DNA from: Oscillospiraceae bacterium
GTDB lineage: Bacteria > Bacillota > Clostridia > Oscillospirales > Oscillospiraceae
DNA length: 37,581 bases
Reading direction: 5' to 3'
Assembly: GCA_017456045.1 (NCBI GenBank)
Contig: JAFTKE010000147.1
Location: forward strand, 1-37,581
Positions 2,499 through 37,160 of the stretch are shown piece after piece (within the stretch, counting starts at the first letter, position 1; each line of letters opens with the position of its first letter). Both the position numbers and the translations under genes were made by a program. Under the pieces are notes generated by a model. That model saw only the letters and a program-made list of their open reading frames with translations. It did not search any database and was not told where the DNA came from.

Positions 2499-3626
2499 AT
2501 GGAGCATAACAAGTGGGTCAGTGTCTGGGGCAATGCGGTGAGCGTGGCGGAGAATCGTCCGGAGCGGTATGCAAAGGATATCACCATCCGCTATCCCATC
2601 CATATCCCGTTTTCCGGCGAGGCGATCCGGCTTACCTTCGACAACTATTGTGGGACGGAGCCTATCACCATCGATAAGGTCACCGTTTTTTATGGCGGCA
2701 GGTTCTACCCAGTCCTGTTTGAGAGCGACAGAGCTGTGACGGTCCCGGCAGGGGAGGACAGGGTGTCCGATCCGCTGGCTGTGAAGCTCAATGAGGGCGA
2801 AGTGATCCAGGTCAGCTTCTATTTGAAGGATTTCACCCAGATGCGCAGCGTAGTCTTCACCTGTGGGCCGCTGTCAGAAGGGCTTTACGCCAATGGAGAT
2901 ATGACTGAGGCCAGGGATATCAGCATCGATACTTCCCGCACTACCCATCTTTTCTATTTCTTGAGCAATGTTTCCGTGCTGACAGCGCCGGAGAATCGGA
3001 CGATCGTCTGTTACGGTGACTCTATCACAGCCCAGGATTGGCCGGATCATTTAGCGCTGCGCTGTTTCGAAGAGGGTTATCATGACACGGCGATCATTCG
3101 CCGGGCCACTTCCGGATCCAGGATCTTGAGAGAATACCACTGTCTGACCTATGAATCCTATGGGCTCAAGGGCAGTAATCGTTTCCACCATGAGGTGCCT
3201 ACTGATGGGGCGGATACGGTGATCATCCAACAGGGGATCAACGACATCATCCATCCGGTCGGGGAGAAGGTCAATGTGTTCCGCCCCATGAGCGACCTTC
3301 CCACGGTGGAGGAGCTGATCGAAGGACTGAAGACTTATATCGCTCAGGCCCGGAGCTATGGCTACAAGGTCTATGTGGGCACACTGCTCCCCATGGGCGG
3401 CTGGCGGACGGATGCGCCCTTCCGGCAGGAGATGCGTCATGCCTACAACGAATTCATCCGCACCACGGATCTGATCGATGGCTGTATCGATTTCGATGAA
3501 GCGCTTCGAGATCCGGCTGCTCCGGACCGGTTCCTGCCCATCTACGATTCCGGCGATCATCTGCATCCCAGCGCCGCCGGCTATCAACGGATGGCCATGG
3601 AGATCCCGGCTGATATCCTGAAATGA
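2499..3626 (+). CDS. SGNH/GDSL-family esterase/lipase
   Basis: Block I GDSIT, block III QGIND, block V DHLHP, preceded by an N-terminal accessory domain. Confidence 0.92.
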   Translation: MEHNKWVSVWGNAVSVAENRPERYAKDITIRYPIHIPFSGEAIRLTFDNYCGTEPITIDKVTVFYGGRFYPVLFESDRAVTVPAGEDRVSDPLAVKLNEGEVIQVSFYLKDFTQMRSVVFTCGPLSEGLYANGDMTEARDISIDTSRTTHLFYFLSNVSVLTAPENRTIVCYGDSITAQDWPDHLALRCFEEGYHDTAIIRRATSGSRILREYHCLTYESYGLKGSNRFHHEVPTDGADTVIIQQGINDIIHPVGEKVNVFRPMSDLPTVEELIEGLKTYIAQARSYGYKVYVGTLLPMGGWRTDAPFRQEMRHAYNEFIRTTDLIDGCIDFDEALRDPAAPDRFLPIYDSGDHLHPSAAGYQRMAMEIPADILK

Positions 3627-3631
3627 ACATC

Positions 3632-3670
3632 ACACCTGTCATCTGTCATGGATACGGATGACAGGTGTTC
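3632..3670 (+). terminator. Hairpin / likely terminator after the SGNH gene
   Basis: ACACCTGTCATC...GATGACAGGTGT forms a 12-bp perfect stem; the U-tract is weak. Confidence 0.55.
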
Positions 3671-3729: not shown

Positions 3730-3758
3730 TTGCATATTCACATATTATGTGTTAATAT
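3730..3758 (+). promoter_or_regulatory. SigmaA promoter driving ole-oapA-dxs
   Basis: TTGCAT (3730-3735), 17-bp spacer, TAATAT (3753-3758), with extended TG. The predicted TSS (~3765) coincides with the 5' end of the RNA. Confidence 0.75.
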
Positions 3759-3765
3759 ACATCCC

Positions 3766-4379
3766 GACGGTGCAGTATCCTAGTCGGGATGGCCATCTTC
3801 CAGGAAGGGCCTAAAAATCCTTTGAAGGGCACATCGATGAAGTCCCTGGTGTCTGCTTTTTACGCCCAGTTTAGGGTGGATGCTGGGGGTTAAGGATCTC
3901 GGGCGCGCTCCAATGGCATGGGGCATACGACCCGATTTCCGTGGAGACTTGAAGTTTGTGCGACGATCTTGCGAACTCCATTTTGGAAGCCTTCTTCGCG
4001 TACGAGTCAAGTATGAACCTGCAAGGCGGTGCATAGGATCGTGTGCTGCGTGCAGCGTAGCCTGCCTTGAGTGATCATGCGGGGAAGGGAGATCAGGCAT
4101 GACAGCGTTATGGCCATAACGCTTCTTGCTATCGCTCCCGGAAACCATGCTTGCAAAAGAGGCTAAGACTATGGCACATCCTGTCGTGGAAATCACCTAG
4201 GCTGTCGTAATTGGGCAGGCAGGGGATTACAGTACGGACTAAGTGGCGATCGGGTGCTCAGGTTTGGCAACACCTGTGCGGACGGATCAAATGGAAACAG
4301 CCCATGCGGTAACGGTGGGTACTGTCCGGGGAAAACCGACCCGACCTAAGCCGTAAGATTTATCCTGCCTGCTACCGTT
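3766..4379 (+). ncRNA. ole: OLE (ornate, large, extremophilic) RNA
   Basis: Matches remembered OLE conserved blocks: GGTGCAGTATCCTAGTC, GGGCCTAAAAATCC, GGGCACATCGATGAAGTCCCTGGTG, GTGGAAA..CCTAG, GGATTA.AGT..GGACTAAGTGG. Long-range helices are visible: 3766-3772/4373-4379, 3773-3783/4197-4204, 3788-3797/4171-4181, 3917-3922/4145-4150, 4215-4223/4364-4372, plus GNRA-capped hairpins. Length is ~614 nt and it lies immediately upstream of oapA. Confidence 0.93.
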
Positions 4380-4410
4380 TTTCAACTACTACACTATCAA
4401 GGAGTAGACC

Positions 4411-5001
4411 GTGTCTAAATTCGATCCTGCCGCTGCGAAAAAGGAGCGGAACAAGACGATCCGCTGGGTCGTCACTATTTTTTTCGTCACCATACTGGTT
4501 TCGGGCATCATCTCTTTGGTGTCCGACGCTGTCATGTCTGTCAGCGGCATCGTCGTCGCTTTTTTGATCTTGATGTTCATCATCCTGGTCGGCATCGTTT
4601 TCGATATCATCGGCGTGGCTGTGACCTCTGCCGACGAAAAGCCGTTCCACTCTATGGCGGCCAGAAAGGTCCCCGGAGCCCAGAACGCCATCAAGCTTCT
4701 TCGCAATGCGGAGCGGGTCAGCTCCATTTGCAATGACGTGGTGGGAGATATCTGCGGTGTCGTTTCCGGTTCCGCCTCCGCCACCATCGCGGCGCAGGTG
4801 CTGGCGCAGACCTCTTTATCTTGGCCTCAGCTTATCACCTTGCTGATGTCCGCACTGGTGGCCGGTTTTACAGTGGGAGGGAAGGCCATCGGAAAGACCT
4901 TCGCAGTGAATTCCAGTACCACCATCGTTTCGTTCGTGGGGAAGGTACTGTACACTTTACAGGGCATCCCTCGTTCCTTCGGGAAGAAAAAGAAAAAATA
5001 A
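4411..5001 (+). CDS. oapA: OLE-associated protein A (membrane protein)
   Basis: 196 aa with about 4 hydrophobic segments. Motifs FDIIGVAVTSADEKPFHSMAARKVPGA, ICNDVVGDICGVVSG (DxxxD) and TVGGKAIGK. RBS AAGGAG, GTG start, located between ole and dxs. Confidence 0.92.
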   Translation: MSKFDPAAAKKERNKTIRWVVTIFFVTILVSGIISLVSDAVMSVSGIVVAFLILMFIILVGIVFDIIGVAVTSADEKPFHSMAARKVPGAQNAIKLLRNAERVSSICNDVVGDICGVVSGSASATIAAQVLAQTSLSWPQLITLLMSALVAGFTVGGKAIGKTFAVNSSTTIVSFVGKVLYTLQGIPRSFGKKKKK

Positions 5002-5020: not shown

Positions 5021-6895
5021 GTGAGTATATTAGAAAACATCCATGGTCACGAGGATCTGCTTCGCCTGAATGATGAAGATAGGCTGCTGCTTTGTCAGCA
5101 GATCCGTACGTTCTTGATCGATCGTGTCTCTAAGACCGGAGGGCATCTTGCCTCCAATCTGGGTACGGTGGAGCTTTCTGTCGCCCTCGAGACCGTCTAT
5201 GATACCGCCAGCGACCGATTGGTCTTCGATGTCGGACATCAGTCCTACGTCCATAAGCTCCTGACCGGACGTCAGGCAGAGTTCGATTCTTTGCGTCAGT
5301 TCGGCGGGATGGCCGGCTTCCCCAAGCCAGGCGAAAGCCCGACGGACTCTTTCGTTGCCGGTCATGCCTCCAGTTCCGTCTCCATTGCTTTGGGGATGGC
5401 CAGGGCCCGCAGTTTGTCCGGAGGCACCCATGATGTGGTAGCTGTGATCGGTGACGGAGCTGCCACTGGTGGTATGGCCTATGAGGGCCTGAACGATGCC
5501 GCCGAAAGCAGAGAGCCCATGGTCATCATCCTCAACGATAATGAGATGTCCATCGATCGCAATGTTGGCGGTATGGCGAAGCATCTGTCCAGACTGCGTA
5601 CCAAGGAGACCTACCTTGGTATGAAAGCCCACTACCGCAAATTCATGAGCAAGAACCGAGTTAGCCGGTTCATCTACCGCACCACCCGTTCCATCAAAGA
5701 TTTCTTCAAACGTATGATCCTGCCCACCACTCTATTTGAGAACATGGGCTTGACCTATCTTGGTCCTGTGGACGGGAACGATGTCAATGAATTGATCGGT
5801 CTTTTGCGTCTGGCTAAGGATATGCGTTGCCCTGTCCTTTTGCACGTGCTTACCAAGAAGGGAAAGGGATATGCTCCAGCTGAGCAAGATCCATCCAAAT
5901 TCCATGGCATCGGCAAATTCGATCCCGCCACCGGTGAGACCTTGAGCAAGGGAGGGGAGACCTTCTCCAGCCAGTTCGGTCAGACCATGATGGAGATGGC
6001 TCAGGAGGATCCCCGGATCTGTGCGATCACGGCAGCGATGCCTGGTGGTACCGGCCTTTTGAACTTCAAGAAGACTTATCCGAAACGGACGTTCGATGTT
6101 GGTATCGCAGAGGAACATGCAGTTTCTATGGCGGGTGGCCTTGCAAAGCAGGGCATGGTGCCTGTCGTAGCGCTTTATTCCACCTTTTTGCAGCGTTCCT
6201 ATGATATGATCATGCAGGATGTGGCGATGCTCCATCTGCATGTGGTCCTCGCTGTGGACCGGGCCGGTCTGGTAGGAGAGGATGGAGAAACGCACCACGG
6301 CATTTATGATATCGGTTTCCTGCGCCATGCTCCCGGCATGACGATCCTTTGCCCTGCCAGCCTGGCGGAGCAGAAACAGATGCTGCATTGGGCAGTGGAA
6401 AAGCATGATGGGCCTGTGGCGATCCGTTATCCCCGAGGTGGCGACCGCGATTTCGTTGGAAGCAAGTGGGAGCCTACGGCGGATATCGCCCGTTCCGGTG
6501 CCCTTGCCTGCCATCGCATGGGCGCCGATGTGACCCTGATCACGTATGGTACGCTTCTGGACAATACCATGAAAGCGGCGGGACTATTGTCGGAGCAGGG
6601 CATCGAATGCACCGTGCTTCGTCTTATGACCGTTGCTCCTCTGCCTGTCTATAATATCCTGACAATGATGTCCGAGACGGAACATGTGGTAGTGGTCGAG
6701 GAGACGGCTGGTGGTTGTGGTATCCGGGAAGCGCTGGCCTGGGAGCTTCAGCATCTCAAGCCCGGTATCCGCGTGGATGGCATCGATCTTGGTCATCGGT
6801 TCATCACTCATGGAGATATGGCATCGCTGTATCAGTATTATGGCCTGGATGCACCGTCTATCGCGAAATTCGTACAGGAGGCTCGTTCGTCATGA
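5021..6895 (+). CDS. dxs: 1-deoxy-D-xylulose-5-phosphate synthase
   Basis: Motifs GGHLASNLG, DVGHQSY, GDGAATGG (TPP binding), GIAEEHA and DRAGLVGEDGETH. Confidence 0.98.
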   Translation: MSILENIHGHEDLLRLNDEDRLLLCQQIRTFLIDRVSKTGGHLASNLGTVELSVALETVYDTASDRLVFDVGHQSYVHKLLTGRQAEFDSLRQFGGMAGFPKPGESPTDSFVAGHASSSVSIALGMARARSLSGGTHDVVAVIGDGAATGGMAYEGLNDAAESREPMVIILNDNEMSIDRNVGGMAKHLSRLRTKETYLGMKAHYRKFMSKNRVSRFIYRTTRSIKDFFKRMILPTTLFENMGLTYLGPVDGNDVNELIGLLRLAKDMRCPVLLHVLTKKGKGYAPAEQDPSKFHGIGKFDPATGETLSKGGETFSSQFGQTMMEMAQEDPRICAITAAMPGGTGLLNFKKTYPKRTFDVGIAEEHAVSMAGGLAKQGMVPVVALYSTFLQRSYDMIMQDVAMLHLHVVLAVDRAGLVGEDGETHHGIYDIGFLRHAPGMTILCPASLAEQKQMLHWAVEKHDGPVAIRYPRGGDRDFVGSKWEPTADIARSGALACHRMGADVTLITYGTLLDNTMKAAGLLSEQGIECTVLRLMTVAPLPVYNILTMMSETEHVVVVEETAGGCGIREALAWELQHLKPGIRVDGIDLGHRFITHGDMASLYQYYGLDAPSIAKFVQEARSS

Positions 6896-7698
6896 AGATC
6901 AAAAAAAGACTGGATGTACTCCTGACGGAACAGGGCTACGCCGAGACCCGCACCAAAGCACAGGCCATCATCATGGCCGGATCTGTCTATGTAGAGGGTC
7001 AGAAAGCGGATAAACCCGGTATCTCCTATGAAGAGAACGTTTCTATCGAGGTCCGCAGCAGCGGTACCTGTCCGTATGTCAGCCGTGGCGGCCTGAAGCT
7101 GGAGAAGGCGCTCCGGGACTTTGGAGTGGACCCTACAGGTTTCGTTTGCAGCGATTCCGGTGCCTCTACCGGTGGATTCACAGATTGCCTGCTCCAGCAG
7201 GGGGCGAAAAAGGTCTTCGCGATCGATGTTGGATATGGCCAGTTGGATTGGAAGATCCGCTCTGATGAGCGTGTAGTGGTCATGGAGCGGACCAATATCC
7301 GCTACGTGACCCCGGAAGACTTGGGCGAGCCGTTGGATCTCTCGGTGGTGGACGTGAGCTTCATTTCCTTGAAGATCGTCCTTCCCGCGATCAAGGCATT
7401 GCTCAAGGCTACAGGCCAGGTCCTGTGTCTGATCAAGCCTCAGTTCGAGGCTGGGCGTGAGAAGGTAGGGAAGAAGGGCGTCGTTCGTGACCCGAAGACC
7501 CATAAAGAGGTCCTGGATATGTTCGTGGATCTGGCTGCTTCTTTGGGCTTTACGATCCTTGGACTGACCTTCTCTCCTGTAAAAGGGCCGGAAGGTAACA
7601 TCGAGTTCCTGGGACATCTGACCCTGGATCAGAAAGAGGGCATCTGCCCGGATACTGCTGACGTGGTACGTCAGGCTCATGAGACGTTGAAGGGGTGA
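6892..7698 (+). CDS. tlyA: TlyA/YqxC-family RNA 2'-O-methyltransferase
   Basis: S4-like KRLDVLL, YVSRGGLKL, GASTGGFTD, DVSFISL and KPQFE. ATG at 6892 overlaps the dxs stop (ATGA). Confidence 0.95.
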   Translation: MKIKKRLDVLLTEQGYAETRTKAQAIIMAGSVYVEGQKADKPGISYEENVSIEVRSSGTCPYVSRGGLKLEKALRDFGVDPTGFVCSDSGASTGGFTDCLLQQGAKKVFAIDVGYGQLDWKIRSDERVVVMERTNIRYVTPEDLGEPLDLSVVDVSFISLKIVLPAIKALLKATGQVLCLIKPQFEAGREKVGKKGVVRDPKTHKEVLDMFVDLAASLGFTILGLTFSPVKGPEGNIEFLGHLTLDQKEGICPDTADVVRQAHETLKG

Positions 7699-7703
7699 AG
7701 GAT

Positions 7704-8570
7704 ATGATCAAAAAAGTGATCTTGACCCCGAATCCTTATCGGGATAAGGATTTCTTGACCGTTCGTGAGGCGATGAAGATATTGAAAGAGGCACAGATCG
7801 AGACCAGACTGTGCCTTCCGTTCGAAGTTGACAGATCCTATGAGCTGCCCAAGGACCTTCGGTTCCATAAGCTGGACCGTGAGATCCAGTCTTCTGACCT
7901 TGTGATCTGCTTTGGCGGAGACGGTACCATCCTGCACATGGCGAAAGCCGCCACCCGGCATGGTGTCCCTATCTTGGGCGTCAACATCGGGACGATGGGG
8001 TTCATGGCAGAATTGGAAGCCTCGGAACTCCATCGATTGACACAGCTAGCAAAGGGGGAATACACCACTGACAGCCGTATGATGCTGGATGTGACCGTCC
8101 GACGGGACAGGGATATCATCTTCCATGATATCGGGCTGAACGATGTGGTGATCACCAAGGGCGCGGTGGCGAGGATCGTCCATTTGTCTGTTTGCTGTGA
8201 TGGGGTACAGGCCATGGAATGTGGCGGCGATGGCATCATCATCGCTACGCCCACAGGGTCCACCGCTTACAGCCTTTCTGCAGGCGGACCGATCGTGGAG
8301 CCTGAGGCGAAGAACATCCTTATCACCCCGATCTGTGCCCATGACATGGGGAGCCGTTGCATGGTCGCTTCCGATAAGCGGGTGATCACGGTGGGGCTGA
8401 CCCGGAACATGCGGCGTAACGCGTTCTTGTCAGTGGATGGCGGGAAGGCCGTGCGTATGAACATGGGCGATGTCGCCACTGTTCGCAGATCCGATATGGA
8501 GACGAAGCTGCTTCGGCTGAAGAAACGAAGCTTTTATGACGTTTTGAATGTGAAATTCAAACACAATTGA
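7704..8570 (+). CDS. nadK: NAD kinase
   Basis: Motifs GGDGT, LND and TPTGSTAYSLSAGGP. Start is ATG 7704 (or GTG 7695). Confidence 0.96.
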   Translation: MIKKVILTPNPYRDKDFLTVREAMKILKEAQIETRLCLPFEVDRSYELPKDLRFHKLDREIQSSDLVICFGGDGTILHMAKAATRHGVPILGVNIGTMGFMAELEASELHRLTQLAKGEYTTDSRMMLDVTVRRDRDIIFHDIGLNDVVITKGAVARIVHLSVCCDGVQAMECGGDGIIIATPTGSTAYSLSAGGPIVEPEAKNILITPICAHDMGSRCMVASDKRVITVGLTRNMRRNAFLSVDGGKAVRMNMGDVATVRRSDMETKLLRLKKRSFYDVLNVKFKHN

Positions 8571-8583
8571 GGAAGGTGCGGAA

Positions 8584-9036
8584 TTGAAAACACAAAGACA
8601 GGCGAAGATCCTCGAGATCGTCATGACCAGGGACGTAGAGACCCAGGAACAGCTGCTCCAGGAGCTGCAGGATGCTGGCTTTTACAGCACCCAGGCCACC
8701 ATCTCTCGGGATATCAAGGAGTTGCGTATCGTAAAGGAGCTGACCAGCTTCGGTACATACCGCTATACTACATCCGCTAAGGAGGTCTCCGGGACCTTCT
8801 CTACCCGGCTCAATACTATTTTCCGGGAATGCGTGACTGGTTTCGATTACGCCCAAAATATCGTGGTGATCCATACGCTGCCGGGCCTTGCTTCCGCTGC
8901 CGGATCTGCTGTGGATGCGATGAACATGAGTTTCGTGTTGGGGACACTGGCCGGTGATGATACGGTCATGATCGTCATGCGGGACACGAACGCCGCTGCT
9001 ACGTTCTGCAGCGAGATCAAGAATCTGTTGAACTGA
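8584..9036 (+). CDS. argR: Arginine repressor
   Basis: Motifs TQATISRDIKEL and GTLAGDDT; TTG start. Confidence 0.97.
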   Translation: MKTQRQAKILEIVMTRDVETQEQLLQELQDAGFYSTQATISRDIKELRIVKELTSFGTYRYTTSAKEVSGTFSTRLNTIFRECVTGFDYAQNIVVIHTLPGLASAAGSAVDAMNMSFVLGTLAGDDTVMIVMRDTNAAATFCSEIKNLLN

Positions 9037-9058: not shown

Positions 9059-10708
9059 GTGCTGAGTCTACTTCATATCGAGAATATCGCCGTGATCGAG
9101 TGCGCGGACATCTCCTTCGATCGTGGGTTCAATGTTCTCACCGGTGAGACAGGTGCAGGTAAATCTATCGTCATCGACGCGATCTCTGCCATTTTGGGAG
9201 AGCGAGCTTATCGGGACATGATCCGGACTGGCACTACCATGGCCAGCGTGCGGGCGGTGTTCACAGATGTCCCGGAGCTGCCCTGGTTCCAGGAGAATGG
9301 GGTGGCATACGATAGCGAGATCGTCGTCCAGCGGCAGATCCATCTGGACGGCAAGAACGTTTGCCGGGTCAACGGATCGCTGGTCACCGTGTCGATCCTG
9401 CGCAAACTTGGGATCCAGCTGATCAATATCCATGGTCAGCACGATTCCGCATCTCTTCTTGATGAAGAGAACCATCTAGGGTTTCTGGATGCTTTTGCTG
9501 ATGACGCCCAACTGATCGCTGATCACCAGGAAAGATTCTCTGCGGTGATGGCTTTACGGCGGGATATCCAGCGAATGAGTATGGATGAGAGCGAGAAGCT
9601 TCGAAGGATGGAGACCCTGCGTTATCAGATCGAAGAGATCTCCAAGGCTTCATTGGAAGCAGGGGAGGACGATGAGCTGGAAGAGCGGAGGAAGCTCCTG
9701 CAAAACGCAGAGAAGCTCAGCAATGGGATGGACACCGCAGTGGAATGCCTTTATGGAGGCGACGAATCTGATGGTGCCGCCAGTTTGCTGGCTCAGGCGG
9801 AACGGGAACTGGCTCGGCTGTCCAGGTATACGGATTCCTTCGCCCATTTGCATGAACGTGTGGCGGATCTGATGTATCAGGTGCAGGATGTGGCAGAGGA
9901 TGTCCGCTCCGCAAGAGACGATCTGAGCTATTCCGCAGACGAGCTGGAGCAGATCGAGTCCCGCCTGGATGTGATCCACCGCTTGAGACGAAAGTATGGT
10001 GCAACTTGCGAGGATATCCTGGGATATCTGGAAAAAGCGCAGAAAGAGCTGGATGAGATCGAATTCGCGGACGATCACGTAGAGCGGTTGAAGGCGAAGC
10101 TGCAGAAGGCAGAAAAAGAAGCCTGGAAAACGGCATACGCCCTTCGTGACCATCGCAAAGGAAAGGCGCAACTGCTTTCTGACAGGATATTGACAGAGCT
10201 TGCACAATTGGATATGCCCAGGGTCCAGTTCTCCTGTGTGTTCGAAGAGACAGAGCTGACTGCTAGTGGTGCAGACAGTGTCGTGTTCTATATGTCCGCC
10301 AATGCGGGCGAAGCCTTGAAGTCCATGAGCAAGGTCGCTTCCGGCGGCGAGTTGGCCCGTATCATGCTGGCGATGAAGAACGTACTGGCAGAGAAGGATA
10401 GGGTGGACACACTGATCTTCGACGAGGTCGATACCGGTGTTTCAGGACGTGCCGCTCAGAAGGTGGCGGAGAAACTCAGAAGCGTCGCTACTCACAAGCA
10501 GGTCCTTTGCGTCACCCATCTGCCTCAGCTGGCAGCTCTGGCCAATACTCATTTGCTGATCGCGAAATCCGAGCGAGATGGGCGGACTTACACCACCGTG
10601 ACTCCTTTGGATATAGAGGGCAGGAAACGCGAGCTGGCTCGCATCATCGGCGGAGCCAATATCACCGAGACGACCTTGAAAAGCGCCGAAGAGATGCTGT
10701 CCATATGA
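9059..10708 (+). CDS. recN: DNA repair protein RecN
   Basis: Walker A GETGAGKS, IHGQH, ASGGELAR, IFDEVDTGVSG and THLPQ. Confidence 0.98.
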   Translation: MLSLLHIENIAVIECADISFDRGFNVLTGETGAGKSIVIDAISAILGERAYRDMIRTGTTMASVRAVFTDVPELPWFQENGVAYDSEIVVQRQIHLDGKNVCRVNGSLVTVSILRKLGIQLINIHGQHDSASLLDEENHLGFLDAFADDAQLIADHQERFSAVMALRRDIQRMSMDESEKLRRMETLRYQIEEISKASLEAGEDDELEERRKLLQNAEKLSNGMDTAVECLYGGDESDGAASLLAQAERELARLSRYTDSFAHLHERVADLMYQVQDVAEDVRSARDDLSYSADELEQIESRLDVIHRLRRKYGATCEDILGYLEKAQKELDEIEFADDHVERLKAKLQKAEKEAWKTAYALRDHRKGKAQLLSDRILTELAQLDMPRVQFSCVFEETELTASGADSVVFYMSANAGEALKSMSKVASGGELARIMLAMKNVLAEKDRVDTLIFDEVDTGVSGRAAQKVAEKLRSVATHKQVLCVTHLPQLAALANTHLLIAKSERDGRTYTTVTPLDIEGRKRELARIIGGANITETTLKSAEEMLSI

Positions 10709-32649: not shown

Positions 32650-32667
32650 AGCCTAGGAGTGATGCAA

Positions 32668-33495
32668 ATGAGATGTGCATGGAAAGAGCTGCTATCGATC
32701 CTGCCAGATTGGATGCGCGCTGACGTGGACGAGCTGGGGAAAGACAGCCTCCAGGAGCTGCGGCTTCGGATCGGCCATCCACCGGAGCTGGTACGAATGG
32801 GCAACGATAAACTGTTGCGCCGTGATGTCCGGGAGGAAGATCTGAACTACATCGTGAATGTAGCGTCGCGGTATTCACCATGGGCAGCGGCTACATCGGC
32901 GCAGGGTTATTTGACAGCACCGGGAGGACACCGGATCGGTCTATGCGGAGAAGCAGTGATACAGCGATGTGCCATGACCGGTCTGAGGCAGGTCCGTTCC
33001 TTATGTATCCGAGTAGCACGGGATCTGCCCGGGATAGCTCATGCCTTAGACCATTTGGATGGATCTATCCTGATCATCGGAAGACCGGGAAGTGGAAAAA
33101 CAACACTATTACGTGATCTGATCCGATATCGTTCCCTTAAAGGATCCGTAGCCGTGGTGGACGAGCGGGGAGAGATCTTTCCCAAAGGATTCGATATTGG
33201 CAACAGAACAGATATCCTGACAGGATGTCCTAAATCCTATGGCATCGATATATTGCTACGCACCATGGGACCGACCACGATCGCCGTTGATGAGATCACG
33301 GCTGAAACAGACTGCGAGGCGATGATCAAGGCAGGTTGGTGCGGTGTCGGGCTCCTGGCGACGGCCCACGCCGCTTCCAGAGAAGATCTTGCGTCTCGTC
33401 CGGTCTACCGGCCTTTGGTCGAAAGCCGGTTATTCGATTCGATCGTGATATTACGCCCGGACAAGTCCTGGAAACTGGAAAGGATGGACCTATGA
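32668..33495 (+). CDS. spoIIIAA: Stage III sporulation ATPase SpoIIIAA
   Basis: Motifs GYLTAPGGHRIG, GRPGSGKTTLLRD, VDERGE, VDEI and ATAH. Start lies between 32659 and 32668. Confidence 0.95.
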   Translation: MRCAWKELLSILPDWMRADVDELGKDSLQELRLRIGHPPELVRMGNDKLLRRDVREEDLNYIVNVASRYSPWAAATSAQGYLTAPGGHRIGLCGEAVIQRCAMTGLRQVRSLCIRVARDLPGIAHALDHLDGSILIIGRPGSGKTTLLRDLIRYRSLKGSVAVVDERGEIFPKGFDIGNRTDILTGCPKSYGIDILLRTMGPTTIAVDEITAETDCEAMIKAGWCGVGLLATAHAASREDLASRPVYRPLVESRLFDSIVILRPDKSWKLERMDL

Positions 33496-34004
33496 CCTTG
33501 AAATTGATCGGAGCGATCTTGATCATCGCAGCTTGTGGAGGAGTAGGTGCTACGATGGTAAGGAACCATAGAAGGGAGGAGCAGGGAGCGTGTCAATTGA
33601 TCCAGGCAGTCGAACTGATGAGTTGTGAATTGGAACAGCATCTGACACCTCTTCCGCAGCTGTGTCGTATGACTGCGGAAAACTGTTCTGGTATCATTGG
33701 ACGGGTACTTACGGATCTTTCTTTTGAGTTGGATGGACAAGTCGGACCAAGCGTAAGTTTGTGTATGGCAGAGGCCATCAGGAAGGATCCCAAATTGATG
33801 CCCACTACACGAGCCCTCTTAGAGCAGCTGGGCATGACTCTTGGACGATTCGATCTGAATGGTCAACTGAAAGGTCTGGATGGTGTGAAACGTTCATGTC
33901 AGATGCAACTGGAACGTTTTACGAAAGATAGGGACATTCGATTGAGAAGCTATCAGACACTGGGACTGTGCGCCGGTGTAGCGCTGGCGATCTTATTTTT
34001 GTGA
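33492..34004 (+). CDS. spoIIIAB: Stage III sporulation protein AB
   Basis: N-terminal LKLIGAILI, LGRFD..GQ and C-terminal LGLCAGVALAILFL; ATGA overlap with spoIIIAA. Confidence 0.9.
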   Translation: MTLKLIGAILIIAACGGVGATMVRNHRREEQGACQLIQAVELMSCELEQHLTPLPQLCRMTAENCSGIIGRVLTDLSFELDGQVGPSVSLCMAEAIRKDPKLMPTTRALLEQLGMTLGRFDLNGQLKGLDGVKRSCQMQLERFTKDRDIRLRSYQTLGLCAGVALAILFL

Positions 34005-34009
34005 ACGCT

Positions 34010-34204
34010 ATGGATATCGATCTCATATTCAAGATCGCCGCGATCGGCATCATCGTCTCCATACTGAACCAGGTACTCTCCAGATCCGGAAGGGAGGAAC
34101 AAGCGACTATGACGACATTGGCAGGATTGGTCGTTGTCCTGATGATGGTCGCCCAAAAGATCTCCGAGCTGTTCGATCTTGTAAAAAATCTGTTCGATTT
34201 CTGA
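34010..34204 (+). CDS. spoIIIAC: Stage III sporulation protein AC
   Basis: MDIDLIFKIAAIGIIVSILNQVL..SGREEQA; 64 aa. Confidence 0.95.
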   Translation: MDIDLIFKIAAIGIIVSILNQVLSRSGREEQATMTTLAGLVVVLMMVAQKISELFDLVKNLFDF

Positions 34205-34599
34205 TGGAAAGATTTTGGCAAGGAGCAGCCCTGGTCTTATTGACGGTCATCATTGGAGCAGCACTGGGAAAGCAGCGAGACGACATTGGGTCACTGCTCG
34301 TTTTGACAGTCTGCTGTATGATAGTGGGCATCGCGATCAGCTATATCACACCTGTTATCGGATTCATCCAACAGCTTCGAACACTTGCTCAGCTGGATGA
34401 TCAAATGCTGGAGATCCTGTTAAAGATCGTAGGGATCGGGATGGTGGGTGAGATCGCGTCTATGATCTGTGTCGATTCAGGCAATTCAGCACTTGGAAGA
34501 TCGCTTCAGTTGCTTAGTACTGCGGTGATCTTATGGATGTCACTACCGATGCTCCAAAAACTGCTGGATCTATTGCAGGATATCTTGGGGGAAGCATGA
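34204..34599 (+). CDS. spoIIIAD: Stage III sporulation protein AD
   Basis: Motif ILLKIVGIG..EIAS.IC.DSG; position in the operon. Confidence 0.92.
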   Translation: MERFWQGAALVLLTVIIGAALGKQRDDIGSLLVLTVCCMIVGIAISYITPVIGFIQQLRTLAQLDDQMLEILLKIVGIGMVGEIASMICVDSGNSALGRSLQLLSTAVILWMSLPMLQKLLDLLQDILGEA

Positions 34600-35636
34600 A
34601 ATCGATCATAATCTCCATCATCTTACTTATGACTATGGTGATCCCCGTCGATGCATACGCATCGACAGCACCGGAGGCGCCAGATCCCGCATTGGAATAT
34701 ATGCCCGTTGAGCAACATAGCTTTAGCGAGGACCTGTGGTATGTGATACGGTCCGCCCTGGAAGCGTTGGAACCAGAGATCTCAGGGTGTATGGCCAAAT
34801 GCCTTGCCGTGACTGCTGCAGTGATCATGGTATCTATCCTGGGGAATTTTCCTGGGACATCGGGTTTGGTGACGGAATTATCCGGAAGCGTGGTAGTGGG
34901 GATATTACTGCTGGATGGTTCCGGCGCTCTGATCGATGCAGCCGCCCAAACGATCCAGTCCATGAGTGATTACGGCAAGCTATTACTGCCTGCGATGGCA
35001 TCTGCCCTGGCTGCTCAAGGTGGTATCACCAGCTCTATCGCCCTTTATACCGGTACTGTCGTATTCGACGCAGTGTTATGCGGGCTGGTCTCCGGTGTGA
35101 TGATACCGATCGTTTACGTATTCTTAGCCCTTTCAGTTGGGAAATGCGCGCTGGGGGACGAGACGATCGGTCGATTGCAAAAACTATCCAAATGGTCCGT
35201 CACCTGGATCCTTAAGATCATTTTGTATGTATTCACTGGATATATGACTGTGACCGGAGTCGTCAGTGGCTCCACCGACCAGTCGGTCTTGAAAGCCACG
35301 AAGCTTACGATCTCCGGTGTGGTCCCAGTGGTGGGCGGGATCCTTTCTGATGCCTCAGAAGCGGTCCTGGTCAGTGCGGGGGCCGTGAAGAACACGATCG
35401 GCGTCTACGGGACGGTCGCCATGATCGCTATCGCTATTGGTCCATTCTTTTCGATCGCACTGCAATATCTGCTGCTTAAGGCCACATCCGCCATATGTGC
35501 GACCTTTGGCCTGAAGAGGACGACCTCTTTGATCGAGGATATCCATGATGCCATGGGTCTTTTGCTTGCGATGACCGGAGCCGTTTGCTTCATGCTATTG
35601 ATCAGCACGGTGTGTTTTATGAAAGGAGTGGCGTGA
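34596..35636 (+). CDS. spoIIIAE: Stage III sporulation protein AE
   Basis: Polytopic membrane protein with VPVVGGILSDA...VKNTIG. ATG at 34596. Confidence 0.92.
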   Translation: MKSIIISIILLMTMVIPVDAYASTAPEAPDPALEYMPVEQHSFSEDLWYVIRSALEALEPEISGCMAKCLAVTAAVIMVSILGNFPGTSGLVTELSGSVVVGILLLDGSGALIDAAAQTIQSMSDYGKLLLPAMASALAAQGGITSSIALYTGTVVFDAVLCGLVSGVMIPIVYVFLALSVGKCALGDETIGRLQKLSKWSVTWILKIILYVFTGYMTVTGVVSGSTDQSVLKATKLTISGVVPVVGGILSDASEAVLVSAGAVKNTIGVYGTVAMIAIAIGPFFSIALQYLLLKATSAICATFGLKRTTSLIEDIHDAMGLLLAMTGAVCFMLLISTVCFMKGVA

Positions 35637-36109
35637 TGGATGCGGTCCGAGGCTATATCCTCACCATCGCCATCGCCGCGATCATCTGCGGGATCTTGAC
35701 GAAACTGGTGGGAGAAAAGGGGACGGGTGGAACTGTGGTCAAGATGATAAGCGGCCTGTTTTTGATGTTCACGCTGATCCGTCCTCTGGAAGATATCGGA
35801 GCCTTTGGACCGTCTTCACTTACTGACGGGTTATCTCAGGAAGCCAGCAGTATCGCTGCAGAAGGCGCACAACGAACGAGAGAAGCCTTACATGATAGCA
35901 TAAAGCAGCGATGTGAAGCATATATCTTGGACAAAGCCGATTCTCTGGATGCTTCCATTACCGTGGAGGTCTTTTTGTCAGAGGACGATATACCGATCCC
36001 TCAAAGCGTCGTGGTGAAGGGACGACTGTCTCCCTTCGCAAAAAACGAACTGGCCAGGACCATCGAAGATGATCTTGGCATCCCGAAGGAGGATCAAACA
36101 TGGATCTGA
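35636..36109 (+). CDS. spoIIIAF: Stage III sporulation protein AF
   Basis: Two N-terminal TM segments (VKMISGLFLMFTLIRP); position between AE and AG. Confidence 0.82.
   Translation: MDAVRGYILTIAIAAIICGILTKLVGEKGTGGTVVKMISGLFLMFTLIRPLEDIGAFGPSSLTDGLSQEASSIAAEGAQRTREALHDSIKQRCEAYILDKADSLDASITVEVFLSEDDIPIPQSVVVKGRLSPFAKNELARTIEDDLGIPKEDQTWI
35898..35926 (+). promoter_or_regulatory. Internal sigmaE promoter (P2-like) for spoIIIAG-AH
   Basis: GCATAAA, 14-bp spacer, CATATATC, inside spoIIIAF. Confidence 0.5.
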
Positions 36110-36585
36110 AAAACATGTACGGGAGATCGAAAGAGGTGATCAAAAAATATCGCTATGCTGTGGCAGTCTTGGTTATCGGCATCGGACTGATGCTACTGCC
36201 TGAACTGGGCGAGAAGAAAGAAGTCGCCACGACAGTCGAACAGGAAGAAATGGCACCGGATGTCGCCGCATCCTTGTCTCGGATATTGTCCCAGATCCAC
36301 GGGGCGGGTAAGGTGGAGATCTATCTCACACTGGAATCCAGTGAGCGGACGGTTTACCAGACCGACGGTGACAGTCAAGGCGGAGGGGCTGATACCGTCA
36401 TCGTCACGGATGAGGATCGGGCACAGCAGGGACTAGTCCAGGAAGTCTTATCACCCCAATATCGGGGTGCGATCATACTCTGTCAAGGTGCGGATGATCC
36501 AACAGTTAGATTATCCATCGTTGAGGCTGTCGCAGACGCGACAGGACTCACCTCTGATCGGATATCCATATTGAAAATGAAATGA
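36100..36585 (+). CDS. spoIIIAG: Stage III sporulation protein AG
   Basis: TM segment, ILSQIHGAGKVEIYLT, and P.YRGAIILCQGADDP.VR..IVEAV. Confidence 0.92.
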   Translation: MDLKNMYGRSKEVIKKYRYAVAVLVIGIGLMLLPELGEKKEVATTVEQEEMAPDVAASLSRILSQIHGAGKVEIYLTLESSERTVYQTDGDSQGGGADTVIVTDEDRAQQGLVQEVLSPQYRGAIILCQGADDPTVRLSIVEAVADATGLTSDRISILKMK

Positions 36586-36602
36586 ATGGGAGGAGCTTAT
36601 TC

Positions 36603-37160
36603 ATGAAATTGAAGAATTGGAAAAAGAATTTGGTGGCAACCGGTATCCTGGTCACCGTATGTGCCGGAATATACATAAACTGGCTATATACCGGAGGGAC
36701 GGACACCAAGGATCTGACCGACACTCTGGATGCCCAAAAGGTGATGTCCGATGATACGCTCATCTTGAACGATGCTACGATCCAGGTAGGCACTGATGGG
36801 ACGAACACCGCAACAGATTACTTCGCTGCTGTGAGATTATCCCGTCAGCAGGCCCGGGACAGCGCGGTGACTCTGCTCCAGGAGGCCATGGCTTATGGAG
36901 ATGAGGAGGGGGAGTCTACCTCTTCCGCACAGCTGGATCTGATCGTGCAGACAGCGTTATGCGAGGCGCAGATCGAAAGTCTGGTGATCGCCAAGGGCTA
37001 CGCTGATTGTGTTGCCTATATGGGCGACGAGGGTATCTCAGTAGCAGTAGCTGCTCCGGAGGGAGGGCTGACGGAGACGGATGTGGCATTGATCGCCGAC
37101 ATCGTTATGTCCCAATCAGATATGGACATCCCTGATATCCATGTAGTGGAAGTACAGTAA
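36603..37160 (+). CDS. spoIIIAH: Stage III sporulation protein AH
   Basis: Motifs AGIYINW, YFAAVRLSRQQARD and IESLVIAKGYADCV. ATG at 36603 follows GGAGG. Confidence 0.92.
   Translation: MKLKNWKKNLVATGILVTVCAGIYINWLYTGGTDTKDLTDTLDAQKVMSDDTLILNDATIQVGTDGTNTATDYFAAVRLSRQQARDSAVTLLQEAMAYGDEEGESTSSAQLDLIVQTALCEAQIESLVIAKGYADCVAYMGDEGISVAVAAPEGGLTETDVALIADIVMSQSDMDIPDIHVVEVQ

What the first reader, a model, noticed from the sequence alone, without database searches (positions are those of the whole stretch)
3766..5001. A ~614-nt OLE RNA and its membrane partner OapA hidden in an apparent intergenic gap
Seen in the sequence: the ~780-bp gap between the SGNH gene and the 4411 ORF has no credible ORF. 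It does have a promoter and nested long-range helices: the ends pair (GACGGTG/TACCGTT), CAGtatCCTAG/CTAGGCTG, GGATGGCCAT/ATGGCaCATCC, GCATGG/CCATGC and GCAGGCAGG/CCTGCCTGC, with GCAA, GTAA and GAAA tetraloops. Established knowledge: OLE RNA is a ~600-nt Firmicute ncRNA encoded upstream of oapA and dxs. It forms a membrane-localised ribonucleoprotein with OapA (plus OapB and OapC), is linked to cold, ethanol and Mg2+ stress tolerance, and its biochemical function is still unresolved. The OapA DxxxD motif (NDVVGD) is intact here. Inference: this is a functional, divergent OLE in an Oscillospiraceae-like organism. The class is known but is usually missed by annotation.
Basis: partly seen in the sequence, partly recalled or inferred. 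Interest (0 to 1): 0.88.

Follow-up and report, generated by a model that had tools for sequence, protein, structure and literature searches.

The report
Ordinary OLE RNA with oapA partner

Summary
Confirmed and ordinary. Rfam OLE (RF01071) matches 3751-4394 end to end at 438.4 bits (cut-off 50). P1 spans 3766-4379 (614 nt). Across 26 sequences 89.9% of cells pair and 111 of 179 pairs co-vary. ORF 4411-5001 is OapA by position, a weak CNNM match, an invariant DxxxD and CorB as top (weak) fold hit. dxs-tlyA-NAD kinase-argR-recN follow. OapB-, OapC- and bS21-like genes lie elsewhere in the genome; no MpfA was found (80% complete). Near-identical pieces occur in gut metatranscriptome contigs. It is not divergent: it scores mid-range among relatives (Oscillospiraceae, Faecousia-like). 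The scan has reported OLE-oapA in at least 8 other genomes. Side result: 8 of 60 same-genus genomes lack both ole and oapA, and all 8 carry a full CNNM (MpfA-type) gene, against 12 of 52 carriers. In 7 the same promoter sits directly before dxs, and these 7 are scattered on a dxs tree. This repeats the published OLE/MpfA anticorrelation within one genus.

The parts
3730..3758 (+). Predicted sigma-A promoter: -35 TTGCAT (3730-3735), 17-nt spacer, extended -10 TGnTAATAT (3750-3758). Likely drives ole-oapA-dxs and onward.
   Evidence: Sequence. TTG..TGnTAnnnT layout 5-9 nt before P1 in 61 of 61 sequences. The same element lies directly before dxs in 7 of 7 relatives lacking ole-oapA. Missed by the strict scan.
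3766..4379 (+). OLE RNA, P1 to P1 (614 nt); full-length type with P7, P8 and P9
   Evidence: RF01071, 438.4 bits over 3751-4394, model 1-616; covariation; near-identical pieces in RNA-library contigs
3804..3823 (+). P4 with A-rich loop CCUAAAAA (dimer bridge B1 in the cryo-EM structures)
   Evidence: GCCTAAAAATCC in 62 of 62 sequences; PMC12286853 passages
3864..3918 (+). Loops L5.1 GCCCA (3864-3868) and L6.1 AUGGCA (3913-3918), the kissing-loop dimer contact; J4a/5 and J6/7 k-turn elements flank this region
   Evidence: both loops conserved in 62 of 62 (AUGGCA or ACGGCA); role from PMC12265935
4112..4115 (+). L9.3 palindrome GGCC (self-kissing dimer bridge B3)
   Evidence: GGCC in 62 of 62 aligned sequences; PMC12286853
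4259..4276 (+). P13 hairpin with GCAA (GNRA) loop and a 2-nt UU bulge; OapB site by analogy
   Evidence: rough script: bulge of 1 nt in 56 and of 2 nt in 14 of 87 rows (some duplicates); PMC7936274
4399..4404 (+). Shine-Dalgarno AAGGAG, 6 nt before the GTG of oapA
   Evidence: Sequence
4411..5001 (+). oapA, 196-aa membrane protein; DxxxD at 4735-4749; basic segment HSMAARK
   Evidence: Weak CNNM match E 4.6e-4; D109 and D113 invariant in 27 of 27; top fold hits MtCorB 7M1T/7M1U, E 0.02-0.33; OLE upstream in 80 of 80 relatives
5021..6895 (+). dxs
   Evidence: TIGR00204, 678 bits
6892..10708 (+). tlyA (6892-7698), NAD kinase (7695-8570), argR (8584-9036), recN-like (9059-10708): the usual downstream cluster

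Best explanation
This is a full-length OLE RNA gene followed by a gene that likely encodes its membrane partner OapA; the RNA is likely made from its own promoter, predicted to dimerise, and likely held at the membrane by OapA in a stress-protective complex whose core job is likely Mg2+/metal-ion homeostasis. Shown here: family membership, secondary-structure covariation, conserved dimer-contact loops, gene order, partner-like genes, and presence of near-identical RNA pieces in gut metatranscriptomes. Inferred from H. halodurans and Clostridium work: transcription from the proximal promoter with read-through into oapA-dxs-tlyA; dimerisation through L4, L5.1-L6.1 and L9.3; OapA binding near P4; OapB on the P13 GNRA loop and OapC on the k-turn. 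Inferred mechanism, about 55% within this reading: OapA supplies a CNNM/CorB-like membrane domain, and the RNA takes the place of the CBS/CorC regulatory part of MpfA-type Mg2+ exporters.
For: Rfam 438.4 bits, full model. 89.9% of cells paired and 111 of 179 pairs with double changes; 0 of 500 shuffles reach this, and slid controls give 38-44%. L4, L5.1/L6.1 and L9.3 are conserved in 62 of 62. OLE lies upstream of oapA in 80 of 80 loci and dxs follows in 79 of 80. OapA: weak CNNM, invariant DxxxD, CorB top fold hit as published for H. halodurans OapA (PMC11332333). OapB-like ORF between map and infA, whose only PDB hit is OapB 7K9B, E 4.8e-4. YbxF/OapC-like ORF before rpsL, best hit YbxF, E 1.1e-15. 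bS21 present. No full CNNM or CorC gene in G000. In the genus, 8 of 8 genomes lacking ole+oapA carry a full CNNM gene, against 12 of 52 carriers.
Against: No function, binding or localisation was tested in this organism. The fold hit is weak (best E 0.021, TM 0.45) and the sequence search of PDB found no relative. 12 of 52 ole/oapA carriers also have a full CNNM gene, so MpfA does not force OLE loss. The bS21-site mimic CCUCCU is not present in P6 here. P13 has a 2-nt rather than a 1-nt bulge. G000 is 80% complete, so the missing MpfA is not proof of absence. RNA evidence is from contigs and cannot give strand, ends or level.
Confidence: 0.95

Rival explanations
1. It is an OLE RNP, but its main job is broad stress signalling or catalysis (the 'bTOR' or ribozyme idea), and Mg2+ handling is only one output.
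For: Deletion phenotypes span cold, alcohol, Mg2+ and carbon source (PMC12265935; PMC11332333). bS21 and ArgR genes are present here. 12 of 52 relatives keep both systems.
Against: No catalytic activity is reported in the papers read. Close relatives lose ole-oapA repeatedly, and all 8 that did carry an MpfA-type gene, which fits a replaceable ion-homeostasis role.
Confidence: 0.35
2. It is a divergent or reduced OLE variant (variant 1 or 2 type) with fewer partners.
For: 2-nt P13 bulge; no CCUCCU mimic in P6; about 19 extra nt in the P7 loop; OapB-like protein only a weak match; no ispA upstream.
Against: P7, P8 and P9 are full length and the P13 GNRA loop is intact. The score is mid-range among relatives. 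OapB- and OapC-like genes are both present.
Confidence: 0.04
3. It is a decayed OLE pseudogene, or a cis-regulatory leader for dxs.
For: The locus is absent in 7 close relatives while the promoter and dxs remain.
Against: 143 of 155 Rfam pairs are canonical in the window. The promoter, RBS and oapA frame are intact. At 99% identity, RNA-library contigs cover only 3766-4381. A single stable OLE band is reported in H. halodurans (PMC3413148).
Confidence: 0.01

Closest known systems
OLE RNA, full-length type (Rfam RF01071; H. halodurans; C. acetobutylicum and C. botulinum cryo-EM dimers)
   Same: Full model match; P1-P15 architecture; A-rich L4, L5.1/L6.1 loops, GGCC L9.3 palindrome, P13 GNRA loop; own proximal promoter; oapA-dxs-tlyA-NAD kinase-argR-recN downstream.
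   Different: Gut Oscillospiraceae host; SGNH hydrolase upstream, not ispA; 2-nt P13 bulge; no CCUCCU anti-SD mimic in P6; longer P7.
OapA (OLE-associated protein A)
   Same: About 200 aa, four long helices in the model, DxxxD, weak CNNM similarity, CorB 7M1T/7M1U as top fold hits, encoded directly after ole.
   Different: Not aligned directly to the H. halodurans sequence, which no tool supplied. Only three hydropathy peaks above 1.6.
MpfA/CorB/CorC (CNNM-CBS-CorC) Mg2+ exporters
   Same: Membrane domain resembles OapA (PF01595, E 4.6e-4; fold hits).
   Different: The window protein has no CBS or CorC domain, scores below the CNNM cut-off and carries DxxxD, which CNNM domains lack (PMC11332333). 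It works like one at most; it is not a member.

Membership tests
OLE RNA (RF01071) | Covariance-model score over gathering threshold across the full model | tested here: met
   438.4 bits against 50; positions 1-616
OLE RNA (RF01071) | About 600 nt, ~25 helices supported by covariation | tested here: met
   614 nt; 111 of 179 pairs co-vary in 26 sequences; controls far lower
OLE RNA (RF01071) | oapA immediately downstream | tested here: met
   ORF starts 32 nt after P1; pairing holds in 80 of 80 loci, which were chosen by oapA
OLE RNA (RF01071) | Dimer-contact loops L4, L5.1/L6.1, palindromic L9.3 | tested here: met
   Sequences present and conserved in 62 of 62; dimerisation itself not tested
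OLE RNA, full-length type | P7, P8, P9 not shortened and P13 OapB site present (390 bits or more on the authors' model) | tested here: met
   All stems aligned. The 390-bit line belongs to another model, so the score comparison is only indicative.
OLE RNA (RF01071) | Abundant stable transcript | tested here: inconclusive
   Pieces of 140-162 nt with 0-1 differences in RNA runs of 2 studies; contigs cannot show level, strand or ends
OLE RNP | Membrane localisation and stress phenotypes | not testable with these tools
   Needs experiments
OLE RNP | OapB and OapC genes (optional; about 60% and 45% of OLE hosts) | tested here: met
   OapB-like E 4.8e-4 to 7K9B; YbxF-like E 1.1e-15
OLE RNP | bS21 site: anti-SD mimic CCUCCU in P6 (H. 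halodurans feature, not family-defining) | tested here: not met
   P6 3' arm reads GACCCGAUUUCC (PMC12054373 passages)
OapA | DxxxD motif in a CNNM-like four-helix membrane protein | tested here: met
   (119 of 120 homologues)
OapA | Direct alignment to H. halodurans OapA | not testable with these tools
   No OapA chain found in PDB searches; no named OapA among 120 listed homologues
MpfA/CorC | CNNM over cut-off plus CBS pair and CorC domain | tested here: not met
   20.3 bits against 28.4; no CBS or CorC

The most novel reading that the evidence does not exclude
In this gut genus ole-oapA behaves as a cleanly removable cassette between a conserved promoter and dxs. It has been lost at least five separate times, each time in a lineage that carries an MpfA-type Mg2+ exporter. 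These are natural paired knockouts showing that one exporter can replace the whole OLE ribonucleoprotein, which would point to Mg2+ efflux control as OLE's essential job.
Probability: 0.45. Interest if true: 0.4.

Novelty: new member of a known kind. Interest (0 to 1): 0.15.

Why it matters
The locus adds one more typical OLE-oapA to thousands already catalogued, so it changes nothing by itself. The genus-level pattern is more useful. Near relatives with OLE only, MpfA only, or both, at an otherwise identical locus, give a tighter natural comparison than the phylum-wide anticorrelation for asking what OLE is needed for.

Tried and rejected
Strict promoter/terminator scan: no + strand promoter and no terminator at the RNA's 3' end. 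PDB sequence searches with the OapA candidate and its alignment: nothing significant. NCBIfam has no model for it. A Pfam KOW search for OapB returned only uL24, so OapB was found through the map-infA interval. The second L7Ae hit (YlxQ-like, in the nusA-infB cluster) was rejected as OapC on context and score. The second weak CNNM hit (C133) is a sugar-symporter-like ORF by inspection, not MpfA. The conserved TTGTATATTCA element was considered as an ARG box: no strict ARG-box pattern (recalled consensus) exists in the genome, and the element occurs once, so this is unsupported. The first L9 loop counts were mis-anchored and were replaced by the alignment count. The 'full' flag used a wrong threshold and was corrected. 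The depth contrast (thousands over the RNA against about 10-20 or 0 on the flanks) was not used as an expression level, because contig depth sums organisms and the flank contigs were about 7-8% diverged. The IQ-TREE run did not finish. Paper searches for 'OLE RNA'+'Oscillospiraceae' gave 0 papers, and the one held supplement of PMC11332333 had no taxon names. Other supplements, which I could not see, may list this genus.

Full report
Observation. The gap between the SGNH hydrolase gene (2499-3626) and the ORF at 4411 holds one Rfam match, the only one in the whole window: OLE RF01071 at 3751-4394 (+), 438.4 bits against a cut-off of 50, covering model positions 1-616. In the window 143 of 155 Rfam pairs are canonical. 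The RNA folds with z = -3.06 against 20 shuffles.

Covariation. I aligned the window with 25 full-length homologues (L010, the window itself, and the four loci with partial hits were left out). On the Rfam pairs plus P1-P3, 89.9% of cells pair and 111 of 179 pairs show changes on both sides. None of 500 shuffles reaches either value, and slid controls pair at 38-44%. Kin are not independent and the structure was mapped from the window, so these numbers lean favourable, but the margins are large. GCATGG/CCATGC is not: both halves belong to other elements, and the forced pair reaches only 127 or 117 of 156 cells.

Functional sites. The dimer contacts described from cryo-EM (PMC12286853, passages; PMC12265935, parts 1-2 of 5) are present. 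The A-rich L4 and the L5.1/L6.1 loops are conserved in 62 of 62 sequences, and so is GGCC in L9.3. The P13 GNRA loop, the OapB site (PMC7936274, passages), reads GCAA but has a 2-nt bulge; a rough script finds 1 nt in 56 and 2 nt in 14 of 87 rows. The CCUCCU anti-SD mimic that binds bS21 in H. halodurans (PMC12054373, passages) is absent from P6.

Promoter. TTGCAT-17-TAATAT with an upstream TG (3730-3758) fails the strict scan. The same layout ends 5-9 nt before P1 in 61 of 61 sequences (no shuffle control). An OLE-proximal promoter is already shown in H. halodurans (PMC3413148, passages).

OapA. ORF 4411-5001 (196 aa, GTG start, AAGGAG 6 nt upstream) has only a sub-threshold CNNM match. D109 and D113 are invariant in 27 of 27 aligned sequences and present in 119 of 120 homologues. 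The AlphaFold model (pLDDT 77.5) has four long helices. Its top four Foldseek rows are MtCorB 7M1T/7M1U, none at E <= 0.001 (best 0.021). This matches what PMC11332333 (parts 1-4 of 7 read) reports for H. halodurans OapA: 7M1U as a top hit, a weak CNNM score, and DxxxD as the distinguishing motif. I could not align it to the H. halodurans protein directly. Of 80 loci fetched by this protein, 80 have OLE upstream (61 full-length, the rest cut by contig ends) and 79 have dxs downstream. Record titles name Oscillospiraceae and Faecousia, which supports the host guess. None of the 80 has the SGNH gene upstream, and the upstream neighbour varies.

Other partners. A 90-aa ORF between map and infA has OapB (7K9B) as its only PDB hit, E 4.8e-4. 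A 79-aa ORF before rpsL matches YbxF, E 1.1e-15, and keeps the conserved glycine (PMC9723947, passages). bS21 is present. No full CNNM or CorC gene was found in this 80%-complete genome.

Expression. 16 of 20 listed runs are on record as RNA. At 99% identity, contigs from three RNA runs of two studies and one run of unrecorded kind cover only 3766-4381. They include pieces of 140-162 nt with 0-1 differences across the variable P7 region. This shows that this RNA, or a near relative's, is in gut RNA libraries. Contigs do not give strand, ends or level.

Not divergent. OLE is found in 27 of 41 genomes of a relatives draw; the window ranks 10th of 26 full-length hits. In the genus, 52 of 61 genomes have it and the window ranks 25th. 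Identity to 61 relatives is 78-92%.

Side result. Of 60 same-genus genomes at least 90% complete, 9 gave no OLE hit. One of them (G057) has oapA with OLE cut by the contig end. The other 8 lack oapA too, and all 8 carry a full-scoring CNNM gene, against 12 of the 52 carriers. Four of the 8 were checked: all have CNNM+CBS, and three show CorC in the stretch scanned. dxs was found in 7 of the 8. In all 7 the same promoter lies within 200 nt of dxs-tlyA, with no trace of ole or oapA. On a FastTree of 85 dxs proteins (5 of 90 left out as short or broken), these 7 need 6 changes, at least 5 of them forced by strongly supported branches. Caveats: the comparison rows were chosen by oapA; a count of changes does not tell loss from gain, though loss is the simpler reading; two of the 7 are over 5% contaminated; and this is a single-gene quick tree. 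The anticorrelation itself is published (PMC11332333). A search for 'OLE RNA'+'MpfA' listed four papers; in the parts I read I saw no within-genus analysis, but I did not read them all in full.

Mechanism. Best reading: an OLE dimer anchored by OapA, with OapB and OapC as folding partners, in which the RNA likely regulates a CorB-like membrane domain for Mg2+ homeostasis. Membership is shown. Everything about binding, localisation and Mg2+ is inferred from other species and from the co-occurrence pattern. A broader signalling or catalytic role remains a live rival.

Verdict. It is an ordinary new member of a well-catalogued class, already met at least 8 times in this scan (those notes were not used as evidence). 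Interest 0.15.

Noticed in passing
L120-L123, L125-L127 (G087, G082, G002, G089, G070, G083, G059), upstream of dxs: ole-oapA is cleanly absent while the conserved promoter and dxs-tlyA remain; all these genomes carry an MpfA-type gene; they are scattered on the dxs tree.
   Followed up: partly
L121 and L122, between promoter and dxs: Short GC-rich inverted repeats lie in the 90-140-nt leader where ole-oapA would be; no match to the OLE profile at E <= 1.
   Followed up: no
L118:3289-4525 (NZ_AP023421.1): OLE (399.8 bits), oapA and dxs-tlyA-NAD kinase-argR lie on a 504-kb Pusillibacter faecalis record filed as a plasmid; it may be a chromid or chromosome piece.
   Followed up: partly
window 3730-3740 and relatives: Conservation extends past the -35 hexamer (TTGTATATTCA, often near-palindromic with upstream bases), which may be a regulator site; an ARG-box pattern test was negative.
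   Followed up: partly
G086 C11:3009-3647 and C36:85807-86446: Two full-length OLE hits in one genome (98% complete, 3% contaminated); duplication or binning artefact.
   Followed up: no
L024 and L026, L9.3: The L9.3 loop reads UGUACA in L024 (an alternative palindrome) and the non-palindromic GGAC in L026; L015 lacks the P13 tetraloop.
   Followed up: no
L081:2998-4001: About 360 nt separate OLE from oapA, against 15-200 nt in the other loci.
   Followed up: no
window 3632-3668: 12-bp inverted repeat with a 13-nt loop just after the SGNH gene, likely its terminator (sequence; not flagged).
   Followed up: no
window 32659-37160: spoIIIAA, AB, AE and AH matches: the host is likely a spore former, in line with the published OLE-sporulation correlation.
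   Followed up: no
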